Positions 8,028 to 51,288 of a DNA stretch of 64,000 nt are shown here, in pieces. Below the pieces are notes generated by a model, which worked only from the letters and a program-made list of their open reading frames with translations, did not search any database and was not told the origin of the DNA. Every line of letters begins with the position of its first letter. The stretch's first letter is position 1. Source of the stretch: Candidatus Egerieisoma sp. (GTDB lineage: Bacteria; Bacteroidota; Bacteroidia; Bacteroidales; UBA932); assembly GCA_045531975.1 (NCBI GenBank), contig JAZSEZ010000052.1, positions 34,870 through 98,869 on the forward strand, given 5' to 3'. Both the position numbers and the translations under genes were made by a program.

Positions 8028-8272
8028 ATGACAAGAATAGAGTATGAAAAAAAGACAGTAGAGACAATGATCCGCCTCTACTGCAAATTGCATAAGCACA
8101 ACAACGGCCAGCCATTGTGTGAAGATTGCTCCCAACTGTTGGTATATGCCCCATCCACTGTTACACCCCCCGTATGCGTGAACAGATGCGCGCCGTAATG
8201 CGCTTCTGTGGCCCCCGAATGATACTTTACCACCCCATAATGGCAATCAGGCACCTTTGGGCAGAGAGGTAA
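8028..8272 (+). pseudogene. nitrous-oxide-stimulated-promoter (YgbA-like) family gene, disrupted by internal deletion and frameshift
   Basis: The N-terminal part MTRIEYEKKTVETMIRLYCKLHKHNNGQPLCEDCSQLLVYA is in one frame. The C-terminal part CPIHCYTPRMREQMRAVMRFCGPRMILYHPIMAIRHL is in another frame starting at 8147. The roughly 18-aa Cys-rich middle segment of the family is missing. Confidence 0.55.
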
Positions 8273-8900
8273 TCGGTAAGCTCTTTAGCTTTTCTATCTC
8301 CCTCTGCAACAGCTCCAGGAACGTTGCGCCGTGCCCGCCATCCATTTGGGAATGGTGGAACTGGAATGAGATTGGGAGGGTTGTCCTGAACCACCCCTTG
8401 CGGTATTTGCCCCACATTACCATTGGGTTGTTGAACTTGTCTGTGTGCTGATTAACAATGCAGTCCAACTCTGTCTGCACCATTGCAGAGGTTCCCACAA
8501 TCATATAATCCTCCAGAAATGTACTTTTGCACTCGGCTGAGGCCTGCGCTGTAAGGCTCTGGTATGCCTCAACAAACTCTTTCACATCACCCGTAAATGG
8601 GATATCACAAGAATTGATTCCCCCTTTGCAGTTGTTTACAATCACATTTATAGCTATGCTATCAAACTTGTACAGTTTGTCTTTATCGGGAAGAAGATAG
8701 AACTCCTCCATTTGGGTTGCTGCCTTTCCAATGCACCAGCAGAGGAGGGCGTTGAATTTCATTCCCAACTTCCGGCTTGCCTTAAGCAAGTTGCTCACAT
8801 CAAAGGTTTTGGTAAGAGTAACCATTGGCATAGGCGAGGTCATCCACATCTGGAATGCCTCTGCCCTGGTTGTATCTTGTGGATTTACTTCTGTTCTCAT
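8247..8900 (-). CDS. chloramphenicol acetyltransferase (type A CAT) family protein
   Basis: Has the catalytic-site context FQFHHSQMDGGHG. Length is 217 aa. Confidence 0.75.
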   Translation of the reverse strand: MRTEVNPQDTTRAEAFQMWMTSPMPMVTLTKTFDVSNLLKASRKLGMKFNALLCWCIGKAATQMEEFYLLPDKDKLYKFDSIAINVIVNNCKGGINSCDIPFTGDVKEFVEAYQSLTAQASAECKSTFLEDYMIVGTSAMVQTELDCIVNQHTDKFNNPMVMWGKYRKGWFRTTLPISFQFHHSQMDGGHGATFLELLQREIEKLKSLPITSLPKGA

Positions 8901-8949
8901 ACTTCAAAGATACAGTTTATTGCCGCTTCCTGCAATTCAACAAATCATA

Positions 8950-9004
8950 TTCCCGACAGAATCATCGGGAATAAAAAGCCTCCCCACCATCAGGCAGAGA
9001 GGCT
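8950..9004. repeat. 55-bp direct repeat copy A (motif hairpin plus terminator hairpin)
   Basis: TTCCCGACAGAATCATCGGGAATAAAAAGCCTCCCCACCATCAGGCAGAGAGGCT matches 9933-9987 at 53 of 55 positions. Confidence 0.9.
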
Positions 9005-9064
9005 TTCTACCTCCTCAATTGCAGTTAAAATATCATGCAACGATTTCTTTACCACATCATCCAT
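8990..9064 (-). pseudogene. remnant (24 codons) of a HEPN/DUF86 toxin gene
   Basis: MDDVVKKSLHDILTAIEEVESLSA* overlaps the upstream nucleotidyltransferase stop by 8 nt (ATGGATGA). This matches the DUF86 N-terminal pattern, and the ORF ends inside repeat copy A. Confidence 0.55.
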
Positions 9065-9362
9065 AGATTAACATTTTTGAAGAATCAATACTCTTTCTTA
9101 AATATGGGTTCCTGATAGCCTGCTCTTCAAGCAAATCTACCTCTCTACCCAAAACTTCCTGCAAGGAATCTTTCAGGTTATAATAATTGTCAAAATAATC
9201 CGAGATATCTTCTTTATTAAAATCGACAACAAGATCAATATCGCTCTCCTTGTTAAATCTCTCAGTAAGGATTGAGCCAAACACAAACAACTTGTTCACC
9301 TTGTACATCTGGCACAAAGCAATAATCGTCTGCATATTTCTCTCAATCAATTTCATAAACAA
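9057..9362 (-). CDS. nucleotidyltransferase-domain protein (MNT-type antitoxin)
   Basis: Has the minimal NTase motif FGSILTERFNKESDIDLVVDF. Length is 101 aa. Confidence 0.75.
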   Translation of the reverse strand: MFMKLIERNMQTIIALCQMYKVNKLFVFGSILTERFNKESDIDLVVDFNKEDISDYFDNYYNLKDSLQEVLGREVDLLEEQAIRNPYLRKSIDSSKMLIYG

Positions 9363-9720
9363 GGATTTTCACAAATAAACAATTTTTCTTTTAAAGAGTT
9401 ATCCCACAAAAAATCCCGACAGTTCTTCAACCGTCAGGATTTTATAAACACTATCTCTAAACTTTTCCCCTCCTCCGTTGTTATATAGATGAAATAGTTT
9501 TTTAAGTTAGGTTAAGTCGGGCAGACCCTGCAGCTTCGGGATGAGGTTGTGGGGTTTGTTTTTCTTCTCTACAAGTGAATAAGTATATCCTTAATACGTG
9601 TTAAGACTTGGGGCAATGTATCTTTACATCACCCCCTTCATCAACGAAACTAAAATACCCAACCCTAAGTAACTATTAAATGGTCAGGTAGCGTCATCCA
9701 TAATTGAGAGAGCATTATAC

Positions 9721-9865
9721 CCCAAGAGGTTAAGCACGCCTACCGCCGCTACAGGTGCTTCCAGGGCATATTGGCGTGCTCATCCCCCATCGTCCAAGGA
9801 TGGTTAAGCACACCCACCGCCCCCAGAGACACCTGCAGGGCACATAGCCGTGCTTAACCTCTTGG
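9721..9865. repeat. REP-doublet cluster 1
   Basis: CCCAAGAGGTTAAGCACGCC...GGCGTGCT and GGTTAAGCAC...GTGCTTAACCTCTTGG. The outer arms AAGAGGTTAAG / CTTAACCTCTT match the clusters at 48339 and 49594. Confidence 0.8.
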
Positions 9866-9932
9866 AGGAATCACCATCAGCAGGGCAAACAACAAAAAAG
9901 GCGGCCTCAAAAAGACCACCTTCTCTATCTTT

Positions 9933-9987
9933 TTCCCGACAGAATCATCGGGAAGAAAAAGCCTCCCCACCATCAGGCGGAGAGGCT
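9933..9987. repeat. 55-bp direct repeat copy B; also the likely terminator of the GGGtGRT operon
   Basis: Matches 8950-9004 at 53 of 55 positions. On the minus strand it reads AGCCTC..GAGGCTTTTT directly after the stop at 10021. Confidence 0.9.
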
Positions 9988-10020
9988 ATATACAATAATT
10001 TGTTTTCTCCTAAGAGTCAA

Positions 10021-11034
10021 TTATTTTGCAAGTGCAGTAGCAACATCCACAGCAACAGCAACAGTTGCACCTACCATTGGGTTGTTACCAATTCCTAGGA
10101 AGCCCATCATCTCAACGTGGGCAGGAACTGATGAAGAACCTGCAAACTGAGCGTCTGAGTGCATACGGCCCATTGTGTCGGTCATACCGTATGATGCAGG
10201 ACCTGCAGCCATGTTGTCTGGGTGAAGGGTTCTACCTGTACCGCCACCTGAAGCAACTGAGAAATATTTCTTGCCAAGTTCCATGCACTCTTTTTTGTAA
10301 GTACCTGCAACTGGGTGCTGGAAACGGGTTGGGTTGGTTGAGTTACCAGTGATTGATACGTCAACGCCCTCAAGGTGCATAATTGCAACACCCTCGCGTA
10401 CGTCGTCTGCGCCGTAGCAGTTAACTTTTGCGCGTGGACCGTCTGAGTAAGCAATTTTGTTTACTACTTTAACCTCACCTGTAGCGTAGTCAAACTCAGT
10501 CTGGCAGTAAGTAAAGCCGTTGATTCTTGAAATGATCATAGCAGCGTCTTTACCCAAACCGTTAAGGATACAACGTAGAGGCTCTTTTCTTACTTTGTCT
10601 GCTTTAGCTGCAATTTTGATTGCACCCTCTGCAGCAGCAAATGACTCGTGACCTGCCAAGAAAGCGAAACATTTTGTCTCCTCTCTTAGTAGACGGGCTG
10701 CAAGGTTACCGTGGCCGATACCTACTTTACGGTCGTCAGCTACTGAACCTGGTACGCAGAATGACTGCAAACCAAGACCAATTGCCTCAGCTGCGTCAGC
10801 AGCGTTTGAGCAACCTTTCTTAAGTGCAATTGCAGCACCTACTACGTAAGCCCATTTTGCATTCTCAAAACAGATTGGCTGAGTCTCCTCGCAAGTTTTG
10901 TATGGATCCAAGCCATACTGCTCGCAAATCTCGTTAGCCTCCTCTATACTTTTAATACCGTTAGCATTCAATGCAGCAAGAATCTGCGGCATTCTACGGT
11001 CCTGACTCTCAAATTTTACTTCTCTAATAGCCAT
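10021..11034 (-). CDS. GGGtGRT family protein (function unknown)
   Basis: Carries the signature SGGGTGRTLHPDN. Start is taken at MAIREVKF, which follows an AGGAAAGGAAA stretch and avoids overlap with the upstream gene. Confidence 0.75.
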   Translation of the reverse strand: MAIREVKFESQDRRMPQILAALNANGIKSIEEANEICEQYGLDPYKTCEETQPICFENAKWAYVVGAAIALKKGCSNAADAAEAIGLGLQSFCVPGSVADDRKVGIGHGNLAARLLREETKCFAFLAGHESFAAAEGAIKIAAKADKVRKEPLRCILNGLGKDAAMIISRINGFTYCQTEFDYATGEVKVVNKIAYSDGPRAKVNCYGADDVREGVAIMHLEGVDVSITGNSTNPTRFQHPVAGTYKKECMELGKKYFSVASGGGTGRTLHPDNMAAGPASYGMTDTMGRMHSDAQFAGSSSVPAHVEMMGFLGIGNNPMVGATVAVAVDVATALAK

Positions 11035-30049: not shown

Positions 30050-30123
30050 TAGCGCGACCCAGGATTGAACTGGGGACCTCATGATTATGAATCATGCGCT
30101 CTAACCAGCTGAGCTATCGCGCC
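30050..30123 (-). tRNA. tRNA with CAT anticodon (elongator Met, or Ile2 if lysidine-modified)
   Basis: The reverse complement GGCGCGATAGCTCAGCTGGTTAGAGCGCATGATTCATAATCATGAGGTCCCCAGTTCAATCCTGGGTCGCGCTA folds as a cloverleaf. It has a 7-bp acceptor, anticodon loop TTCATAA and T-loop TTCAATC. CCA is not encoded, and it lacks the three G-C pairs of an initiator anticodon stem. Confidence 0.85.
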
Positions 30124-30132
30124 AACATGTAG

Positions 30133-30203
30133 TTGAGATATTAGGACTCGAACCCAAACCGAAAGAGCCAGAATCTTTTGTGCTACCATTACACCATATC
30201 TCA
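30133..30203 (-). tRNA. tRNA-Gln (CTG)
   Basis: The reverse complement TGAGATATGGTGTAATGGTAGCACAAAAGATTCTGGCTCTTTCGGTTTGGGTTCGAGTCCTAATATCTCAA folds as a cloverleaf. The acceptor is TGAGATA/TATCTCA with U1-A72, the anticodon loop is TTCTGGC and the T-loop is TTCGAGT. Confidence 0.8.
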
Positions 30204-47147: not shown

Positions 47148-48320
47148 ATGAGCAGAAAGAGAGACAGCGGGGGGAGAAAAAGGTCTCCCCTTTTGTTTGG
47201 GCTTACATTCAGGGCTATTCTGATTGTGGCCGCTGCCGCTATGCTCCTTTCATACCTTTCTGTATATGTAAATCCTTCAAAATTTGCCCTGCCGCTTTTC
47301 TTCGGCCTGTATTTTATCCCCATTCTTGCCATAAACCTGCTGTTGCTGCTGGTGGCACTGCTCCGCAGAAGTGCAAGTGCGTGGATTACAGTGGTGGCAC
47401 TGCTGCCTGCCCTGCTTTACACCGAACTTTTCTTTAAAATAGGACACAACGAGGAGGCTGAAAAAGAGGGGATAGAACTTAAAATAGAGAGCTACAATGT
47501 AGGAATGTTCTCATCTGCCCGGGGCGGCATAACCAGAGAAGAGTGCCGCAAGGAGATTGGGAAACATATTGCAAATGAGCTTCCCGACATATTATGCCTG
47601 CAGGAGTTTTTTGCAGAGAGCTATACCCAGGCCGACACCATTTACAGCCAGTATCCGTACCGCCACTATCACCTTTTCAAGGCACTGAACGGGAAACTTT
47701 TTGGAAATATCATCCTAAGCCGGTTCCCCATTGTAGAGAGCGGACGCCTGAGTTTTAAAGGGAGCACCAACCTCTCAATATTTGCAGATATTGAACACTA
47801 CGGTCGCACCCTGCGCATATACAACAACCACTTGGAATCATACAATGTATCATTCACAGCCCTTGCCCAAAAAGCGGCCCGGGCCCTTCAGGGGGAAACC
47901 ACCGAAGAAGGTGGTTCCACACCAGAGTTTTACGGCAGCAACATACTGAATGAAACAACCAGAGAAGAGCTTACGCGTGACATAGTTGAGACCCACGAAA
48001 AAATGAAAGACACCTTCATCAAGCGCTCCCAGCAGGTTGGAAAGATAATGGATGACATCAACCGCTCATCCAAACTCACAATCATCTGTGGAGACTTTAA
48101 TGACACCCCAATGTCATACACATATCACACACTGGCAAAACACCGCAAAGACACCTTCAAAGAGGCCGGCAAAGGATTTGGAGCCTCATTCGTCCCCGTA
48201 TGGCCCCTGCTCAGAATAGATTACCTCATTGTCCCCCAGGAAGCTGAGTGCCTTACCCACACCGTACACAAGATCAGTTTCTCAGACCACTACCCTGTAA
48301 GCGCAGAGATGATACTTTAA
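47148..48320 (+). CDS. endonuclease/exonuclease/phosphatase (EEP) family membrane protein
   Basis: Has N-terminal TM helices, then EEP motifs (ILCLQEF, NNHLES, GDFNDTP, SDHYPV). Confidence 0.75.
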   Translation: MSRKRDSGGRKRSPLLFGLTFRAILIVAAAAMLLSYLSVYVNPSKFALPLFFGLYFIPILAINLLLLLVALLRRSASAWITVVALLPALLYTELFFKIGHNEEAEKEGIELKIESYNVGMFSSARGGITREECRKEIGKHIANELPDILCLQEFFAESYTQADTIYSQYPYRHYHLFKALNGKLFGNIILSRFPIVESGRLSFKGSTNLSIFADIEHYGRTLRIYNNHLESYNVSFTALAQKAARALQGETTEEGGSTPEFYGSNILNETTREELTRDIVETHEKMKDTFIKRSQQVGKIMDDINRSSKLTIICGDFNDTPMSYTYHTLAKHRKDTFKEAGKGFGASFVPVWPLLRIDYLIVPQEAECLTHTVHKISFSDHYPVSAEMIL

Positions 48321-48338
48321 TACCTATCCCCCTAACCC

Positions 48339-48480
48339 GCAAGAGGTTAAGAGAACTTATACCCTTTGTGTGCGCTGTAGCACAGGTTCTCACCCTTAAC
48401 CTCAAGTAGTTCCTACAGGTTAAGTGAGTAAATCAGCTTTATATGCGCTGTGAGGCACACTATGTAGCTTAACCTCTTGG
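48339..48480. repeat. REP-doublet cluster 2 (3' flank of the RAYT-like gene)
   Basis: AAGAGGTTAAGAGAAC...GTTCTCACCCTTAACCTC, a spacer, then AGGTTAAGTGAG...TAGCTTAACCTCTTGG. Confidence 0.8.
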
Positions 48481-48501
48481 GAATACCCAAATTATTGCAA
48501 A

Positions 48502-49476
48502 TTATACATACCCTTTCAGAAGCTCTGTATCCAAATGAAGCATCCTTGCTATCTGCTTGTGGGTAGAGGCGTATTCATAGCGCAGTTTCCTGGCAATGAC
48601 AAGCCTGGATGCAATGTTGAGGTTACGCACATCAGCTTCTCCAAACATTCTGGCGGCAAGTTCTGCAACGGCAGGTCTCAAATCTTTGTCGGGAATGAAA
48701 GATTTGTTCCCTTTCCAAATGGCAGCATCAATCTCTCCCTCAAGTTTTTTTGACAAATGGTAAAGATATTTTGCCGGTGATTTGAAAAGAGATTCAATAA
48801 TGCCGGTATCAAAGAAAGAGGCAGGCATAAGCATTCCCCTGTGGTCCATAACCCAATCATCGGGAAGATTTACACGAGTACCCAATTTCGAATATTTTTC
48901 ATTTGCCGATATTGCGCCAAGGGGAACTCGAGAGTTGCAGATGCACTCCCCGTTGCAGGTTGTTTCATCCGCTCTTCCCTGCAGATTATTTTCTTTAAAG
49001 ACAAACTGTGCACTACCCCAGGGGTATTCAGAGGGGAGTTTCCTGTATCCGGCCATTATTGGATTCCTGTCTATATATGCAATTACCGAAAGGAGATTAT
49101 CCTCATCTTCAATTGGAATTATTCTGGTTGTCAATCCTCTCAGATGCCCCTCAATGGAATATCGGGTATAGATATATTTTCCGGTAAGATGCTTGTATCT
49201 GGTTATGAAATCCTTACAGGATGGCATTGGACCACATAGGAGGAAATGGACGTGATTGTCCATAAGTGTGTATGACAAAACTCTTACTTGTGTAAGGTAA
49301 GAACATATTCCTATTCTGTTTATCCCATTTATAAAATCGGTATCATCTTTGAACATCCACGGCAGAACATTACCGTCCGTACATATGTGAAAACAGTTGC
49401 ACGCATTGAACCTATTGCCTGACTCAAAACTGAAAAAATCCCTCTCCACCATAAAAGAAATGTTTTCTGGCCCCAC
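48502..49476 (-). CDS. IS200-like HUH/Y1 transposase-family protein, REP-associated (RAYT-like), with C-terminal DnaA-C-like HTH
   Basis: Has the HUH motif in YTLMDNHVHFLL and the Tyr motif AYIDRNPIMAGY. The C-terminus ASRLVIARKLRYEYASTHKQIARMLHLD resembles DnaA domain IV. The gene is flanked on both sides by REP clusters. Confidence 0.7.
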   Translation of the reverse strand: MGPENISFMVERDFFSFESGNRFNACNCFHICTDGNVLPWMFKDDTDFINGINRIGICSYLTQVRVLSYTLMDNHVHFLLCGPMPSCKDFITRYKHLTGKYIYTRYSIEGHLRGLTTRIIPIEDEDNLLSVIAYIDRNPIMAGYRKLPSEYPWGSAQFVFKENNLQGRADETTCNGECICNSRVPLGAISANEKYSKLGTRVNLPDDWVMDHRGMLMPASFFDTGIIESLFKSPAKYLYHLSKKLEGEIDAAIWKGNKSFIPDKDLRPAVAELAARMFGEADVRNLNIASRLVIARKLRYEYASTHKQIARMLHLDTELLKGYV

Positions 49477-49593
49477 AATCCTTTCCCCTCAATCCCACCC
49501 GGGCCAATTTGGTGGAAACATTGAAGTCTTTTACAAAGATTGCAATATTTTTTGCCCATTCCAAATCTTTTCTTCCCGATAAATCTTCACATA

Positions 49594-49738
49594 CCCAAGA
49601 GGTTAAGCGAGATACCCCCGGTTTTGTGGCGCTGTAGGATACATACCCTTGCTTAACCTCCTATATTTACTTGAGGTTAAGATTGCATATGTCGTTCAGA
49701 ATGTATTTTGGGAGGGGATAGTGTTACTAACCTCTTGT
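49594..49738. repeat. REP-doublet cluster 3 (5' flank of the RAYT-like gene)
   Basis: CCCAAGAGGTTAAGCGAG...TTGCTTAACCTCC, a spacer, then TGAGGTTAAGATT...TTACTAACCTCTTG. Confidence 0.8.
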
Positions 49739-49875
49739 GAAAATTTTTCATTCTCTGCGAGGGTAAGGCAAGAGTGCCTCTGGTATTAATTGTGTGAAAG
49801 CCTAGTGTTGGAAAAAGGCAACTCTCTTTGGGAAAAATCAGCGGTAATGAGTAAATTTGCAAAAATCGCTTAATA

Positions 49876-50448
49876 ATGCAGATTATGAAAGAACAGATTG
49901 ATGCAGCAATAAAAGTACTTAAAGAGGGGGGAGTGATTCTTTACCCTACAGATACCATTTGGGGGTTGGGTTGTGATGCAACCAACGAGGCTGCCGTTGA
50001 AAAGATATTTAAGATTAAGCAGCGTCAAGACAGCAAGAGCCTTATCACTCTTGTGGCGGACATTGATATGATTGGGCGTTATGTAAAGGAGATACCGGAG
50101 ATTGCAATCCAATTGGTTGAGGTGAATGACAAGCCTATGACAATCATCTATCCGGGAGCAATGGGGCTGGCAAAGAATGTTGTGGCTGAAGATGGCACAG
50201 CAGGTATCCGTATCCCTAATCACGAGTTCTGCCACCAGTTGATCTACAAGTTCCGCAAGGCAATAGTATCTACATCTGCAAATTTGTCGGGAGAAAAATC
50301 ACCTGCCACTTTTGAGGAGATTCCTCAGGAGATAAAGGATGCTGTGGATTACATTGTTGCTCCGGAGTTTGAGGGTGAGTGTACCCACAGTGCTTCACAA
50401 ATTATAAAGGTGGGGCTTGGCAGTGAGATTGAGATTATCCGCGGATAG
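49876..50448 (+). CDS. L-threonylcarbamoyladenylate synthase (YrdC/TsaC/Sua5 family)
   Basis: Has YPTDTIWGLGCDATN and STSANLSGE. Confidence 0.8.
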   Translation: MQIMKEQIDAAIKVLKEGGVILYPTDTIWGLGCDATNEAAVEKIFKIKQRQDSKSLITLVADIDMIGRYVKEIPEIAIQLVEVNDKPMTIIYPGAMGLAKNVVAEDGTAGIRIPNHEFCHQLIYKFRKAIVSTSANLSGEKSPATFEEIPQEIKDAVDYIVAPEFEGECTHSASQIIKVGLGSEIEIIRG

Positions 50449-50487
50449 TTTGGATTTGAATTGAAGTGCCCCAACAGGGGCAACAAC

Positions 50488-51288
50488 TCAACCGCACATA
50501 AAGTACACCCCGGCAACGGCAGCAACGGCGGCCGTTTCTGTGCGGAGGCGGGATTCACCAAGGGTGAGTGGTTTGAATCCTGCGGCTATGGCGGCATCTA
50601 CTTCGGCTGGAGAGAAATCTCCTTCCGGCCCAATAAGGATTGTAATGTGCGGCAGCGTAAACACAGGGCGTGTGTCACCAGCAGCGAAATCTATTCCTGT
50701 ATCCAATGCCCCCGCCTGAGCCCCCACCTGAACATCTGCCTCGGCGCAAGCCTGGGCAACAGCCTGAGCAAGGGTTACCTTTTCTCTCTCTCCGCAATAT
50801 GCAATCAGTTTTACCCCGGGATATGAAGCTGCTTCCTTAATGAACTGTTTCACCGGAACTGCCTCCTGCAATACCGGCACAGCCCCTTTCAGGGATTGCT
50901 TGGCAGCGGAAACCAGAATTTTCTCCAAACGCTCCGGTTTTATGATGCGGCGCTCAGAGTGCTCCCCTATTACAGGAACCACTGTATCCAGTCCCATTTC
51001 TGTTGCCTTTTCAAGGAACCACTCGTAGCGGTCTATATTTTTTGTAGGACATACCGCCATTGTAAGGTTATACCTGTGAGCCCCAAATCCTTCCTGCACA
51101 TTCTCCACACTGCAAACCACTTTTTTGCCGCACTCCAGAATCTTGCAGGTATATAGTGCCCCGCTCCCGTCAATTACATTTATAGTATCACCCACAGTAT
51201 GCCTGAGCACCTTTGCACAATGTCTGCTCTCCTCTTCTGTAAGGGTGCAGAGCCCGTTTGCCATTTCTGCAGAGAAAAAAAGTTCCAT
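50488..51288 (-). CDS. rsmE: 16S rRNA (uracil1498-N3)-methyltransferase
   Basis: Has the RsmE layout with an N-terminal PUA-like part (HCAKVLRHTVGD), then LIGPEGDFSPAEV and LGESRLRTETAAV. Confidence 0.8.
   Translation of the reverse strand: MELFFSAEMANGLCTLTEEESRHCAKVLRHTVGDTINVIDGSGALYTCKILECGKKVVCSVENVQEGFGAHRYNLTMAVCPTKNIDRYEWFLEKATEMGLDTVVPVIGEHSERRIIKPERLEKILVSAAKQSLKGAVPVLQEAVPVKQFIKEAASYPGVKLIAYCGEREKVTLAQAVAQACAEADVQVGAQAGALDTGIDFAAGDTRPVFTLPHITILIGPEGDFSPAEVDAAIAAGFKPLTLGESRLRTETAAVAAVAGVYFMCG

What the first reader, a model, noticed from the sequence alone, without database searches (positions are those of the whole stretch)
48339..49738. RAYT-like HUH transposase gene flanked on both sides by REP-doublet clusters, with a third cluster 39 kb away
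The 324-aa protein at 48502-49476 (minus strand) carries an HUH motif (MDNHVHFLL) and the Y-motif AYIDRNPIMAGY of IS200-like/Y1 transposases. It has no IS ends. Instead it is bracketed by two roughly 140-bp composite palindromic clusters at 48339-48480 and 49594-49738. Each cluster consists of two hairpin units of the form GAGGTTAAG-N(30-45)-CTTAACCTC. The units are nested inside outer arms CCAAGAGGTTAAG / CTTAACCTCTTGG. A third cluster with the same arms lies at 9721-9865, with degenerate GGTTAAG remnants around 9505-9620. Unit loops repeatedly contain GCGCTGTAG-like cores (48371, 48444, 49629; the reverse-complement form CTACAG is near 9750). This recalls the conserved GTAG tetranucleotide next to E. 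coli REPs. A domesticated Y1 transposase flanked by its own REPs is the hallmark of REP/RAYT systems, which are best characterised in Proteobacteria. Two features look atypical here. One is the apparent C-terminal DnaA-domain-IV-like HTH. The other is the large-loop architecture of the REP units.
Basis: partly seen in the sequence, partly recalled or inferred. Interest (0 to 1): 0.7.

Follow-up and report, generated by a model that had tools for sequence, protein, structure and literature searches.

The report
RAYT-like nuclease with cognate palindromic modules
An unannotated gene of an uncultured gut Bacteroidales-type bacterium encodes a distant relative of the REP-associated (RAYT) single-strand DNA transposases. 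It sits between two copies of its own 140-base four-armed palindromic DNA module, which extends this kind of system to a large protein family that databases call hypothetical.

Summary
The ORF at 48502-49476(-) has an invariant HVH motif, Tyr134 and Asn138. Its predicted fold matches E. coli RAYT (4ER8) best.

It is bracketed by two 140-142 nt modules at 48339-48480 and 49594-49738. Each has four GGTTAAG-type arms in + - + - order. A third module lies at 9721-9865.

Twelve hand-inspected homologue loci show flanking four-arm modules, weak on one side of L013. The arm sequence changes with the paralogue, and about eight arm types were seen. Most closer types share a CCAA...TTGG foot.

The type-1 gene stays in one chromosomal neighbourhood in at least six MAGs. 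It evolves under purifying selection (dN/dS about 0.1-0.16). It was not found on plasmids, and only distant N-terminal-only relatives were found on phage contigs.

So it works like a REPtron/TIRtron, but it is not a canonical member:
- It scores below the curated Pfam and NCBIfam cut-offs.
- It lacks the WQ motif and has no GTAG at the hairpin foot.
- Module copy number is low, five or fewer perfect copies per MAG.
- Module interiors are all different.

The DnaA-domain-IV claim and the "degenerate remnants" at 9505-9620 are not supported. The latter is a separate multicopy terminator-like element.

Verdict: a new variant of a known kind, of moderate interest.

The parts
48502..49476 (-). RAYT-like Y1/HUH gene. 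It is 324 aa from GTG 49476, and the probable start is ATG 49452 (316 aa). The N-terminal Y1 core is about residues 28-141 and the family-specific C-terminal region about residues 176-324.
   Evidence: ORF. The AF2 model has pLDDT 84.7 with beta-alpha-beta-beta-alpha-beta-alpha order. Foldseek top hit is 4er8_A at E 1.8e-4, followed by ISDra2, IS608 and IS200 TnpA. NCBIfam REP_Tyr_transpos scores 27.5 bits, E 2.4e-6. Pfam Y1_Tnp scores 16.9 bits.
49246..49254 (-). HUH motif codons H75-V76-H77, within LMDNHVHF
   Evidence: H75 and H77 are invariant in 34 homologues. They lie on strand beta3 of the model.
49063..49077 (-). Catalytic-Tyr motif Y134-I-D-R-N138, a class-2 type Y-x-x-x-N-P
   Evidence: Y134, D136, R137 and N138 are invariant. 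The motif lies on helix 125-141. The class-2 signature is taken from PMC6006769 Table 1.
49453..49593 (-). Conserved promoter-like region and 5' leader of the gene: TTGCAATCTTTGTA ... ACTTCAATGTTTCCACCAAATTGGCCCGGGTGGGATTGAGGGG
   Evidence: The region aligns across paralogues of different module types (A4). Function is inferred only.
48339..48480 (+). Module A, 140 nt between the outer feet, 22 nt beyond the gene's stop codon. Arms are at 48340-48351, 48395-48403, 48416-48424 and 48468-48479.
   Evidence: (nhmmer 100.6 bits on +, 68.3 on -).
49594..49738 (+). Module B, 142 nt, 118 nt upstream of the ORF start. Arms are at 49596-49607, 49652-49660, 49673-49681 and 49728-49737 (last arm imperfect).
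   Evidence: (86.8 bits on +, 49.0 on -).
9721..9865 (-). Solo module C, 142 nt, in a 1.1-kb intergenic region. Arms are at 9723-9734, about 9773-9785 (degenerate), 9802-9808 and 9853-9864. Its interior is in the opposite orientation to A and B.
   Evidence: (105.7 bits on -, 79.1 on +). A 96.6% identical copy is in L007.

Best explanation
This is a REPtron/TIRtron-type system of an uncultured gut bacterium of the Bacteroidales type.

The gene encodes a chromosomal, vertically inherited Y1 HUH single-strand-DNA nuclease/transposase. It is related to RAYT/TnpA_REP and carries a family-specific C-terminal helical extension of about 150 aa.

Its substrates are the cognate modules of about 140 nt that flank it and that occur as solo copies elsewhere. 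Each module has four arms in + - + - order, ends in a CCAAG...CTTGG foot, and has a variable interior.

Inferred mechanism: when the DNA is single-stranded, the arms fold. Covariation slightly favours an outer stem (arm 1 with arm 4) enclosing a central hairpin (arm 2 with arm 3). A protein dimer recognises the arm sequence specific to its own paralogue. It cleaves and rejoins at or near the conserved foot through a 5'-phosphotyrosine on Tyr134, with metal held by H75, H77 and N138. This moves, copies or maintains whole modules.

Shown: the fold, the catalytic residues, the module anatomy, the paralogue-module covariation, the synteny and the purifying selection. Inferred: binding, the cleavage site, and any present-day mobility.
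For: Fold and residues:
- Foldseek gives 4er8_A (E. coli RAYT bound to a REP hairpin) as the best PDB match, followed by about 25 IS200/IS605 TnpA chains.
- H75, H77, Y134 and N138 are invariant.
- NCBIfam REP_Tyr_transpos gives E 2.4e-6.
- A distant family member passes Pfam Y1_Tnp (29.2 bits against a cut-off of 23), and IMG names it RayT.

The association is general:
- Flanking four-arm modules were seen in the window and in L001, L003, L010, L013 (weak on one side), L029, L032, L040, L043, L045, L047 and L049.
- A strict automatic detector found a module in 24 of 50 upstream and 25 of 50 downstream flanks of further metagenomic homologues. It found none in 100 shuffled flanks.

Covariation:
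- The arms are the same on both sides of one gene but differ between paralogues. Examples are GGTTAAG, ACGGTGGCGCA, CCGATGCGAAC, ACCCGCTACTC, ACCTCAGGGCACAC, CCGTTGAGCGG and ATGGCGGCA.
- The foot CCAA.../...TTGG recurs.

Solo copies:
- The type-1 pattern occurs at 1-5 loci per genome in about a dozen related MAGs.
- The inner arms were not part of the search pattern, yet they are invariant (A63-C66, G83, T86) while the interiors vary.
- Length is fixed at 140-142 nt although 126-156 nt was allowed.

Domestication-like behaviour:
- The gene has the same MutL / rhomboid / Exo_endo_phos / Sua5 / RsmE neighbourhood in the window, L029, L001, L043, L032 and L013. Neighbours are 46-98% identical and the gene 52-70%.
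- dN/dS is 0.10-0.16.
- One homologue (P0098) has the same neighbours in all three contigs shown, from three different samples.
- The family is absent from plasmids, and only N-terminal-only distant relatives were found on phage contigs.

The DNA folds equally well on both strands, which points to a DNA-level palindrome rather than an RNA structure.
Against: - There is no biochemical or population evidence of cleavage or movement. Four metagenomes showed no excision or insertion joints, and no empty-site/filled-site pair was found.
- Copy number is low, at most 5 perfect type-1 modules per MAG.
- No two modules share an interior, so there is no sign of recent replication, unlike REPIN populations.
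- The protein scores below the curated cut-offs: Pfam 16.9 against 23, NCBIfam 27.5 against 80.
- HMMER finds no PDB relative.
- The WQ motif of REP-associated subclasses is absent (one search compared).
- Support for the nested fold over two side-by-side hairpins is modest: 60.2% against 56.1% of cells paired, and 1/500 against 178/500 shuffles reaching the observed value. Orthologous copies may inflate it.
Confidence: 0.68

Rival explanations
1. It is an autonomous but rarely moving IS200/IS605-type insertion sequence. In this reading the flanking modules are its left and right ends, and the solo modules are MITE-like deletion derivatives (left end plus right end without the gene).
For: Modules flank the gene on both sides, as subterminal hairpins do in IS608. 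In the window, L001, L029 and L032 each flanking pair scores best on the same strand. No target-site duplication is seen at module ends, as in that family. Many homologues sit on contigs of 1.1-1.7 kb, as if bounded by repeats. The same intergenic site holds a type-1 solo module in L038 and a 2.3-kb type-3 gene cassette in L010.
Against: The gene stays in one neighbourhood across genomes whose housekeeping neighbours are only 46-98% identical. Paralogues within one genome are only about 50% identical and each has its own arm type. No identical copies were seen. The Y motif is Y-x-x-x-N-P (class 2), not Y-x-x-x-Q (class 1, IS200). Each side carries a complete four-arm module rather than a single hairpin. 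Nothing was found on plasmids and only distant N-terminal-only relatives on phage contigs.
Confidence: 0.15
2. It is a fully immobilised, co-opted system. The modules are fixed cis-elements, such as binding or cleavage sites used for local DNA inversion or rearrangement, replication-linked processing or gene regulation. The HUH-HTH protein serves the host and disperses nothing.
For: Module interiors are all different and copy number is low, so recent replication is not evident. Arms and length are conserved. Solo modules persist at orthologous loci in several species: the L028 type has matching flanks in L010, L024 and L028, with near-identical modules also in L005, L018, L021 and L039. The RAYT cassette lies at rearrangement points: the RAYT+Sua5 segment is inverted in L043, and the right flank is different in L001. 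Different paralogue types share a conserved leader with its own CCAAATTGG palindrome.
Against: Solo modules lie in unrelated intergenic contexts (convergent, divergent and tandem) with no common neighbouring gene. Several arm types with their own paralogues per genome fit element-enzyme co-evolution better than one host function. No phenotype or expression data exist, and no RNA runs hold the locus.
Confidence: 0.13
3. The modules are structured RNA genes or terminators unrelated to the protein, and their position next to the gene is a coincidence.
For: They are strongly self-complementary and intergenic.
Against: The arm type changes with the paralogue at twelve hand-inspected loci. Strict detection found modules in 49 of 100 flanks of further homologues and in 0 of 100 shuffled flanks. 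No Rfam family matches. Both strands fold about equally. No T-run terminators were found.
Confidence: 0.03

Closest known systems
RAYT / TnpA_REP with REP/BIME or REPIN repeats (E. coli, Pseudomonas; PDB 4ER8; class-2 Y1 transposases of Quentin et al. 2018, PMC6006769)
   Same: Both have the Y1 HUH fold, and 4ER8 is the best structural match. Both have the HUH motif plus Y-x-x-x-N-P. In both, a single-copy chromosomal gene is flanked by its own palindromic repeats, further copies lie elsewhere, one genome can hold several paralogues each with a cognate repeat type, and the repeats share a conserved short foot sequence.
   Different: The protein is twice as long, with a conserved extra C-terminal region of about 150 aa. 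It has no WQ motif and scores below the curated model cut-offs. The repeat is a 140-nt four-arm module of two direct-repeat units, not a 20-40 nt hairpin or an inverted REP doublet. The foot is CCAA(G), not GTAG. There are only a few copies per genome, with unique interiors.
TIRYT / TIRtrons (Di Nocera et al. 2013, PMC3733652), equal to subclass 2.1 / Bertels group 1 (PMC6006769)
   Same: Both are RAYT-like genes flanked by inverted repeats that are not GTAG REPs. In both, the repeats are sometimes self-complementary or 'double palindromic', sometimes form small dispersed families, and are low in copy number. Both have longer proteins with an NHVH motif and a C-terminal HTH-type extension.
   Different: The GGGGWSAS motif of many TIRs is absent. 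Subclass 2.1 was reported to have no REP-like sequences near the gene. Its C-terminal region matches Pfam Bac_DnaA_C, HTH_23 or HTH_28, whereas this one has no such Pfam hit. Membership could not be tested directly because no TIRYT sequences were at hand.
Subclass 2.6 / Bertels group 5 TnpA_Y1 of Bacteroidetes (PMC6006769)
   Same: Both occur in the phylum Bacteroidota, have an NH[LIV]H motif, and are flanked by 'atypical' structures lacking GTAG, copies of which occur elsewhere in the genome.
   Different: Subclass 2.6 has a median length of 179 aa, a WQ motif and YIH[QN]NP. Its repeats are hairpins of about 24 nt such as GCTAGCGCGAGCGTCCCGCTCGTG (Table S1). Its hosts are Flavobacteriia/Cytophagia-type genomes.
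IS200/IS605 (IS608, ISDra2) and their MITE derivatives
   Same: Both have the same catalytic fold. In both, hairpins lie on both sides of the gene and no target duplication is seen.
   Different: Here there are no multiple identical copies, the Y motif has N rather than Q, there is no tnpB, the locus is syntenic across genomes, and a whole four-arm module lies on each side.

Membership tests
Y1 HUH transposase superfamily (IS200/IS605 TnpA, RAYT) | beta-alpha-beta-beta-alpha-beta-alpha HUH fold with the HUH motif on a strand and a single catalytic Tyr on the following helix | tested here: met
   The AF2 model has pLDDT 84.7. Foldseek gives 4er8_A at E 1.8e-4 and prob 1.0, then ISDra2, IS608 and IS200. 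H75, H77 and Y134 are invariant.
Y1 HUH transposase superfamily (IS200/IS605 TnpA, RAYT) | Passes the curated sequence model (Pfam PF01797, gathering score 23) | tested here: not met
   The window protein scores 16.9 bits, E 0.007. 31 of 34 homologues match weakly, best E 3.7e-4. A distant member, P0334, does pass at 29.2 bits.
RAYT / TnpA_REP (class 2) | Tyr motif Y-x-x-x-N-P (class 2) rather than Y-x-x-x-Q (class 1) | tested here: met
   YIDRNP, with Y134 and N138 invariant. The signatures are from PMC6006769 Table 1.
RAYT / TnpA_REP (class 2) | Passes NCBIfam REP_Tyr_transpos NF047646 (cut-off 80 bits) | tested here: not met
   27.5 bits, E 2.4e-6, covering residues 62-153.
RAYT / TnpA_REP (class 2) | Conserved W[EQ] motif between HUH and Tyr, implicated in GTAG recognition | tested here: not met
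   No conserved W lies between H77 and Y134. The equivalent stretch reads GHLRGL (compared).
RAYT / TnpA_REP (class 2) | Gene flanked by cognate palindromic repeats that also occur elsewhere in the genome | tested here: met
   Modules A and B flank the gene and module C lies 39 kb away. The same holds at 11 further hand-inspected loci (weak on one side of L013) and in 49 of 100 flanks by strict automatic detection, against 0 of 100 shuffles. Solo copies occur in related MAGs.
RAYT / TnpA_REP (class 2) | REP is a 20-40 nt hairpin with a 5' GT[AG]G at its foot | tested here: not met
   The repeat is a 140-142 nt four-arm module whose foot is CCAAG. GTAG is only enriched in the interior, 30 against 10 on the other strand.
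RAYT / TnpA_REP (class 2) | Repeats present in tens to hundreds of copies per genome | tested here: inconclusive
   1-5 perfect type-1 modules per MAG and 3 in this 64-kb window. MAGs are incomplete and the source genome was not available whole.
RAYT / TnpA_REP (class 2) | Single copy, vertically inherited (domesticated) | tested here: met
   Synteny in at least 6 genomes. dN/dS is 0.10-0.16. The family is absent from plasmids, and only distant N-terminal-only relatives were found on viral contigs.
RAYT / TnpA_REP (class 2) | Sequence- and structure-specific cleavage and strand transfer on its own repeats | not testable with these tools
   This needs purified protein and oligonucleotide substrates.
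IS200/IS605 insertion sequence | Several near-identical copies per genome with defined ends | tested here: not met
   Paralogues in one genome are 53-57% identical to the query and each has its own arm type. One homologue (P0098) has the same neighbours in the three contigs shown, from different samples.
TIRYT / TIRtron | RAYT-like gene bounded by terminal inverted repeats that are not GTAG REPs | tested here: met
   The outermost arms of A and B are 10-13 nt inverted repeats bounding the 1.4-kb cassette (I2 and I20).
TIRYT / TIRtron | GGGGWSAS motif in the TIRs; sequence grouping with published TIRYTs | tested here: not met
   The motif is absent from the arms. Grouping with published TIRYT sequences was not tested because none were at hand.
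Subclass 2.6 (Bacteroidetes TnpA_Y1) | About 179 aa, NH[LIV]H + WQ + YIH[QN]NP, flanked by short atypical hairpins | tested here: not met
   The protein is 316-324 aa, has no WQ, and has YIDRNP. Its repeats are 140-nt modules, against 24-nt hairpins in Table S1.
DnaA domain IV (Bac_DnaA_C) HTH | Detectable sequence or fold similarity of the C-terminus to DnaA domain IV | tested here: not met
   No Pfam hit in 34 members at E<=1. hhalign against validated 1J1V gave probability 0.08%. Foldseek gave 3pvp_B at E 2.6 and prob 0.54, behind ParB HTH at E 0.66.
REPIN (inverted REP doublet) | Two REPs in inverted orientation whose interiors pair in one long hairpin | tested here: not met
   The two units are direct repeats: 71% identity over 35 nt in A (D1), and the same interior motifs lie on the same strand in both units.

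The most novel reading that the evidence does not exclude
The fixed-length (140-142 nt) four-arm module may be a purpose-built substrate with two-fold pseudo-symmetry, matched to a dimer of this HUH-HTH enzyme. The system may be kept by the host for something other than selfish spread. One possibility is enzyme-driven inversion or rearrangement at the cassette. Another is replication-fork-linked processing of a few fixed chromosomal sites. In this reading the arms and the length are actively maintained while the interiors drift. That would be a new functional class of domesticated HUH enzyme in gut Bacteroidales.
Probability: 0.13. Interest if true: 0.75.

Novelty: new variant of a known kind. 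Interest (0 to 1): 0.5.

Why it matters
REP/RAYT-type systems have mostly been worked out in Proteobacteria. This finding shows a large protein family with the same logic in uncultured gut Bacteroidales-type bacteria.

- The family has at least 351 clusters at 50% identity with E<=1e-30. In the clusters checked, NCBI calls the members hypothetical.
- The logic is one enzyme paralogue paired with one cognate palindromic repeat type.
- The repeat architecture is different, the conserved foot is a different tetranucleotide (CCAA), and the protein carries an extra domain.

This gives a natural panel of enzyme-substrate pairs. The pairs could be used to study how Y1 HUH nucleases read hairpin DNA, and possibly to build orthogonal HUH tags or ssDNA tools. 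The modules may also explain some assembly breaks and local rearrangements in these MAGs. The family deserves an annotation model of its own.

Tried and rejected
- HMMER against PDB sequences, with the single protein, the full-length profile and the C-terminal profile, found nothing relevant.
- The C-terminal domain alone was modelled and searched by fold.
- DnaA domain IV homology was rejected.
- Rfam at gathering threshold over the window, and at E<=1 over 8900-10030, gave only two tRNAs and chance hits.
- No RNA sequencing run holds the locus.
- Metagenome contigs from four runs showed no excision or insertion joints at any module.
- A search for empty-site/filled-site pairs among the fetched loci found none. 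It did find the L038/L010 site that holds different elements.
- A relaxed automatic module detector was discarded because 26-34% of shuffled flanks also scored. Only the strict detector is used.
- The orientation of the module interior relative to the gene is not consistent: opposite in the window, L029 and L032, the same in L001, and ambiguous in L043. No claim is built on it.
- PADLOC gave no hit and PHROGs only a weak transposase hit.
- The sigma-70 and terminator scans were uninformative.
- Taxonomic placement by NCBIfam hits of neighbouring genes was inconclusive.
Full report
**What is there.**
The ORF at 48502-49476 (minus strand) encodes 324 aa from a GTG start. The public database version starts at the ATG at 49452 and is 316 aa.

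The ORF lies between the end of an Exo_endo_phos gene and a Sua5/YrdC gene. It is bracketed by two palindromic clusters at 48339-48480 and 49594-49738. A third cluster lies at 9721-9865 in a 1.1-kb intergenic region.

GAGGTTAAG occurs 10 times in the window against 0.64 expected, and 0 of 100 shuffles reached 10. The three hits outside the clusters lie inside long ORFs. A generic scan for four arms in + - + - order finds only these three sites in 64 kb, against 0.33 per shuffled window.

**Anatomy of the module.**
- Each cluster runs from CAAGAGGTTAAG to CTTAACCTCTTG and is 140-142 nt long.
- Inside are a second CTTAACC arm, a spacer of about 13 nt, and a second GGTTAAG arm.
- The two halves are direct repeats of each other, 71% identical over 35 nt in A. 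The module is therefore a tandem pair of units and not an inverted REP doublet.

A scan of one genome per species for CAAGAGGTTRAG-N(105-135)-AACCTCTTG returned 36 loci.
- About 27 are in Bacteroidales-labelled or related herbivore and animal gut MAGs, at 1-5 loci per genome.
- About 9 are in unrelated taxa. I estimated about 8 by chance from the size of the collection.
- All true hits but one are 140-142 nt long, although 126-156 nt was allowed.

In an alignment of 28 distinct modules, the inner arms are invariant even though they were not part of the search pattern. The interiors differ in every copy.

Covariation in the 10-nt extensions of the arms slightly favours a nested fold, in which arm 1 pairs with arm 4 and arm 2 with arm 3.
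- Nested fold: 60.2% of cells paired, and 1 of 500 shuffles reached the observed value.
- Two side-by-side hairpins: 56.1% paired, and 178 of 500 shuffles reached it.
- This is modest evidence, because several rows are orthologous copies.

Both DNA strands fold about equally well, so the palindrome acts at the DNA level. GTAG is enriched on one strand of the interior (30 against 10), mostly about 20 nt before arm 4. It is not at a hairpin foot.

**The protein.**
- By sequence it is barely recognisable. Pfam Y1_Tnp gives 16.9 bits against a cut-off of 23. NCBIfam REP_Tyr_transpos gives 27.5 bits against a cut-off of 80, at E 2.4e-6.
- HMMER finds nothing in the PDB.
- An AlphaFold model built on 34 homologues has pLDDT 84.7. 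It shows the beta-alpha-beta-beta-alpha-beta-alpha order of HUH enzymes, with HVH on strand 3 and Tyr134 on the next helix.
- Foldseek's best PDB match is 4ER8, the E. coli RAYT bound to a REP hairpin (E 1.8e-4). ISDra2, IS608 and IS200 transposases follow.
- H75, H77, Y134 and N138 are invariant.
- YIDRNP is the class-2 (RAYT-type) form of the Tyr motif (PMC6006769).
- The WQ motif of the REP-associated subclasses is missing.

Residues 176-324 form a conserved helical region.
- It has no Pfam hit and no significant fold match. The best were ParB HTH at E 0.66 and the DnaA DNA-binding domain at E 2.6.
- hhalign against E. coli DnaA domain IV gave probability 0.08%. I first checked my recalled DnaA sequence against 1J1V.
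- The last three helices look like a generic helix-turn-helix, and no more can be said.

**The family.**
- A profile search of 1.84 billion representative proteins gives 351 clusters at E<=1e-30 and 1329 at E<=1e-10. Most are full length at 285-320 aa.
- NCBI calls the members checked 'hypothetical protein [Bacteroidales bacterium]'. IMG calls one distant cluster 'REP element-mobilizing transposase RayT', and that member passes Pfam.
- I found no paper linking RAYT to Bacteroidales.

**The enzyme-module link is general and specific.** Flanking four-arm modules were found at every homologue locus I inspected by hand, although the second one in L013 is weak. The arm sequence changes with the paralogue.

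| Locus | Arm or foot |
|---|---|
| window, L001, L029, L032, L043, L013 | GGTTAAG-type |
| L003 (second paralogue of the same MAG as L001) | CCAAGACGGTGGCGCA |
| L010 | CCAAGCCGATGCGAAC |
| L040 | CAAACCCGCTACTC |
| L045 | AAACCTCAGGGCACAC |
| L047 (module about 110 nt) | CCGTTGAGCGG |
| L049 (a 338-aa distant member) | AATGGCGGCA |

- In 54 further metagenomic loci, a strict detector found a module in 24 of 50 upstream flanks and 25 of 50 downstream flanks. It found none in 100 shuffled flanks.
- Many of these arms begin CCAA and end TTGG. This foot plays the part that GTAG plays in classical REPs.

**Behaviour of the gene.**
- The type-1 gene sits in the same neighbourhood (MutL, rhomboid, Exo_endo_phos, Sua5, RsmE, HGSNAT) in the window, L029, L001, L043, L032 and, more loosely, L013.
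- Neighbouring proteins are 46-98% identical and the gene itself 52-70%.
- dN/dS is 0.10-0.16. dS is near saturation.
- One homologue (P0098) has the same neighbours in the three contigs shown, from three different samples.
- Plasmids hold only one distant relative, and three viral contigs hold distant relatives. All match only the N-terminal core.
- In four herbivore-gut metagenomes the locus is contiguous at even depth, with no module-sized joints. The only structural variant is an in-frame 18-nt indel at 49397.

This is the profile of a resident, vertically inherited gene. It is not the profile of a hopping insertion sequence.

**Interpretation.**
The system works like a REPtron or TIRtron. 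A Y1 HUH nuclease is paired with its own palindromic repeat, several such pairs can occur in one genome, and solo repeats occur elsewhere.

It is not a canonical member.
- It fails the curated models.
- It lacks WQ and a GTAG foot.
- Its repeat is a long four-arm module, and copy number is low.
- No two interiors match, so recent replication is not evident.

Comparison with published groups:
- The Bacteroidetes subclass 2.6 differs in protein length (179 aa), in motifs, and in having 24-nt hairpins.
- The nearest published concept is the TIRYT/TIRtron of Di Nocera et al. and subclass 2.1 of Quentin et al. Both have long proteins with an HTH tail.
- Here, however, the GGGGWSAS motif is absent. 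Subclass 2.1 was also reported to have no neighbouring repeats.

The binding mode, the cut site and present-day activity are all inferences.

**Rivals.**
- A sluggish autonomous IS with MITE-like solo modules fits the flanking arrangement. It also fits the L038/L010 site, which holds different elements in two genomes. It does not fit the synteny or the lack of identical copies.
- A fully co-opted system, with fixed sites serving a host function, fits the unique interiors, the conserved arms and length, and the rearrangements next to the cassette. Nothing positive supports it.
- An unrelated RNA or terminator element is excluded by the paralogue-arm covariation.

**Host.**
Record titles name Bacteroidales, Muribaculaceae, Rikenellaceae, Candidatus Coprenecus and 'Candidatus Egerieisoma'. 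NCBI taxonomy files the last genus under Clostridiaceae. This conflicts with the other labels and with the Bacteroidota-type outer-membrane protein domains next to the locus. I treat the host as an uncultured Bacteroidales-type gut bacterium of ruminants.

Noticed in passing
Copies 90-94% identical occur in L007 (directly abutting its module) and twice in L003. Depth in four metagenomes is 10-15 times that of the flanks. On the + strand only, it folds into a 19-bp hairpin with G-U pairs followed by UUUGUUUUU (-30.3 kcal/mol, z -3.9), like a terminator or the 3' end of a small RNA. No Rfam match.
   Followed up: partly
window 9583-9722: A 140-nt stretch lies directly left of solo module C. It is absent from the otherwise 92-97% identical locus L007, where the 88-nt element abuts the module. 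It is the size of a module but has no recognisable arms. Whether it is an insertion or a deletion is unresolved.
   Followed up: partly
window 49453-49593 (minus strand); A4: The region upstream of the gene is conserved across paralogue types. It has a Bacteroidetes-style TTTG...TAnnTTTG-like promoter (TTGCAATCTTTGTA) and a leader containing CCACCAAATTGGCCCGGGTGG, which itself holds a CCAA-A-TTGG palindrome like the module foot. In some homologues (P0002, P0004) this leader is read in frame as an N-terminal extension. In the window it is out of frame, within the ORF at 49329-49559.
   Followed up: partly
window 49397: An 18-nt in-frame deletion polymorphism was seen in one metagenome. It removes the six residues (NRFNAC region) that the window protein has in excess of all its homologues.
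   Followed up: yes
L001 11290-11470; L003 11070-11290; L010 3660-3860, 4020-4140, 4380-4700; L040 5030-5110; L043 2936-3078; L045 2080-2160, 3560-3740: Short tandem-repeat arrays with periods of roughly 10-50 nt lie next to the gene cassettes in related loci. The window has none near its cassette.
   Followed up: no
L043 and L001 compared with window 47148-51288: There are rearrangements at the cassette. In L043 the segment holding the RAYT cassette plus Sua5 is inverted between Exo_endo_phos and RsmE. In L001 the right-hand flank is replaced by other genes (NamZ and a 778-aa protein) and the DPPIV block is inverted.
   Followed up: partly
L038 3464-3608 compared with L010 3965-6230: The same intergenic site, with flanks 91-97% identical, holds a solo type-1 module in one MAG. 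In another MAG it holds a 2.3-kb stretch with a type-3 gene flanked by type-3 modules plus tandem repeats.
   Followed up: partly
window 8247-8900 (minus strand): The gene next to the long intergenic region scores as a CatA-like O-acetyltransferase, family 2 (317.9 bits against a cut-off of 250).
   Followed up: no
L007, L009, L010, L012, L016, L021, L028, L033 record titles: These MAGs are titled 'Candidatus Egerieisoma sp.', a genus that NCBI taxonomy places in Clostridiaceae. Homologous loci in other MAGs are titled Bacteroidales, Muribaculaceae or Rikenellaceae, so a label is probably wrong. The 1.8-kb contig L005, titled Acetatifactor, carries a module near-identical to the L028-type module of those MAGs and looks mis-binned.
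   Followed up: partly
window 30050-30203 (minus strand): Two adjacent tRNA genes are the only Rfam matches at gathering threshold in the window.
   Followed up: no
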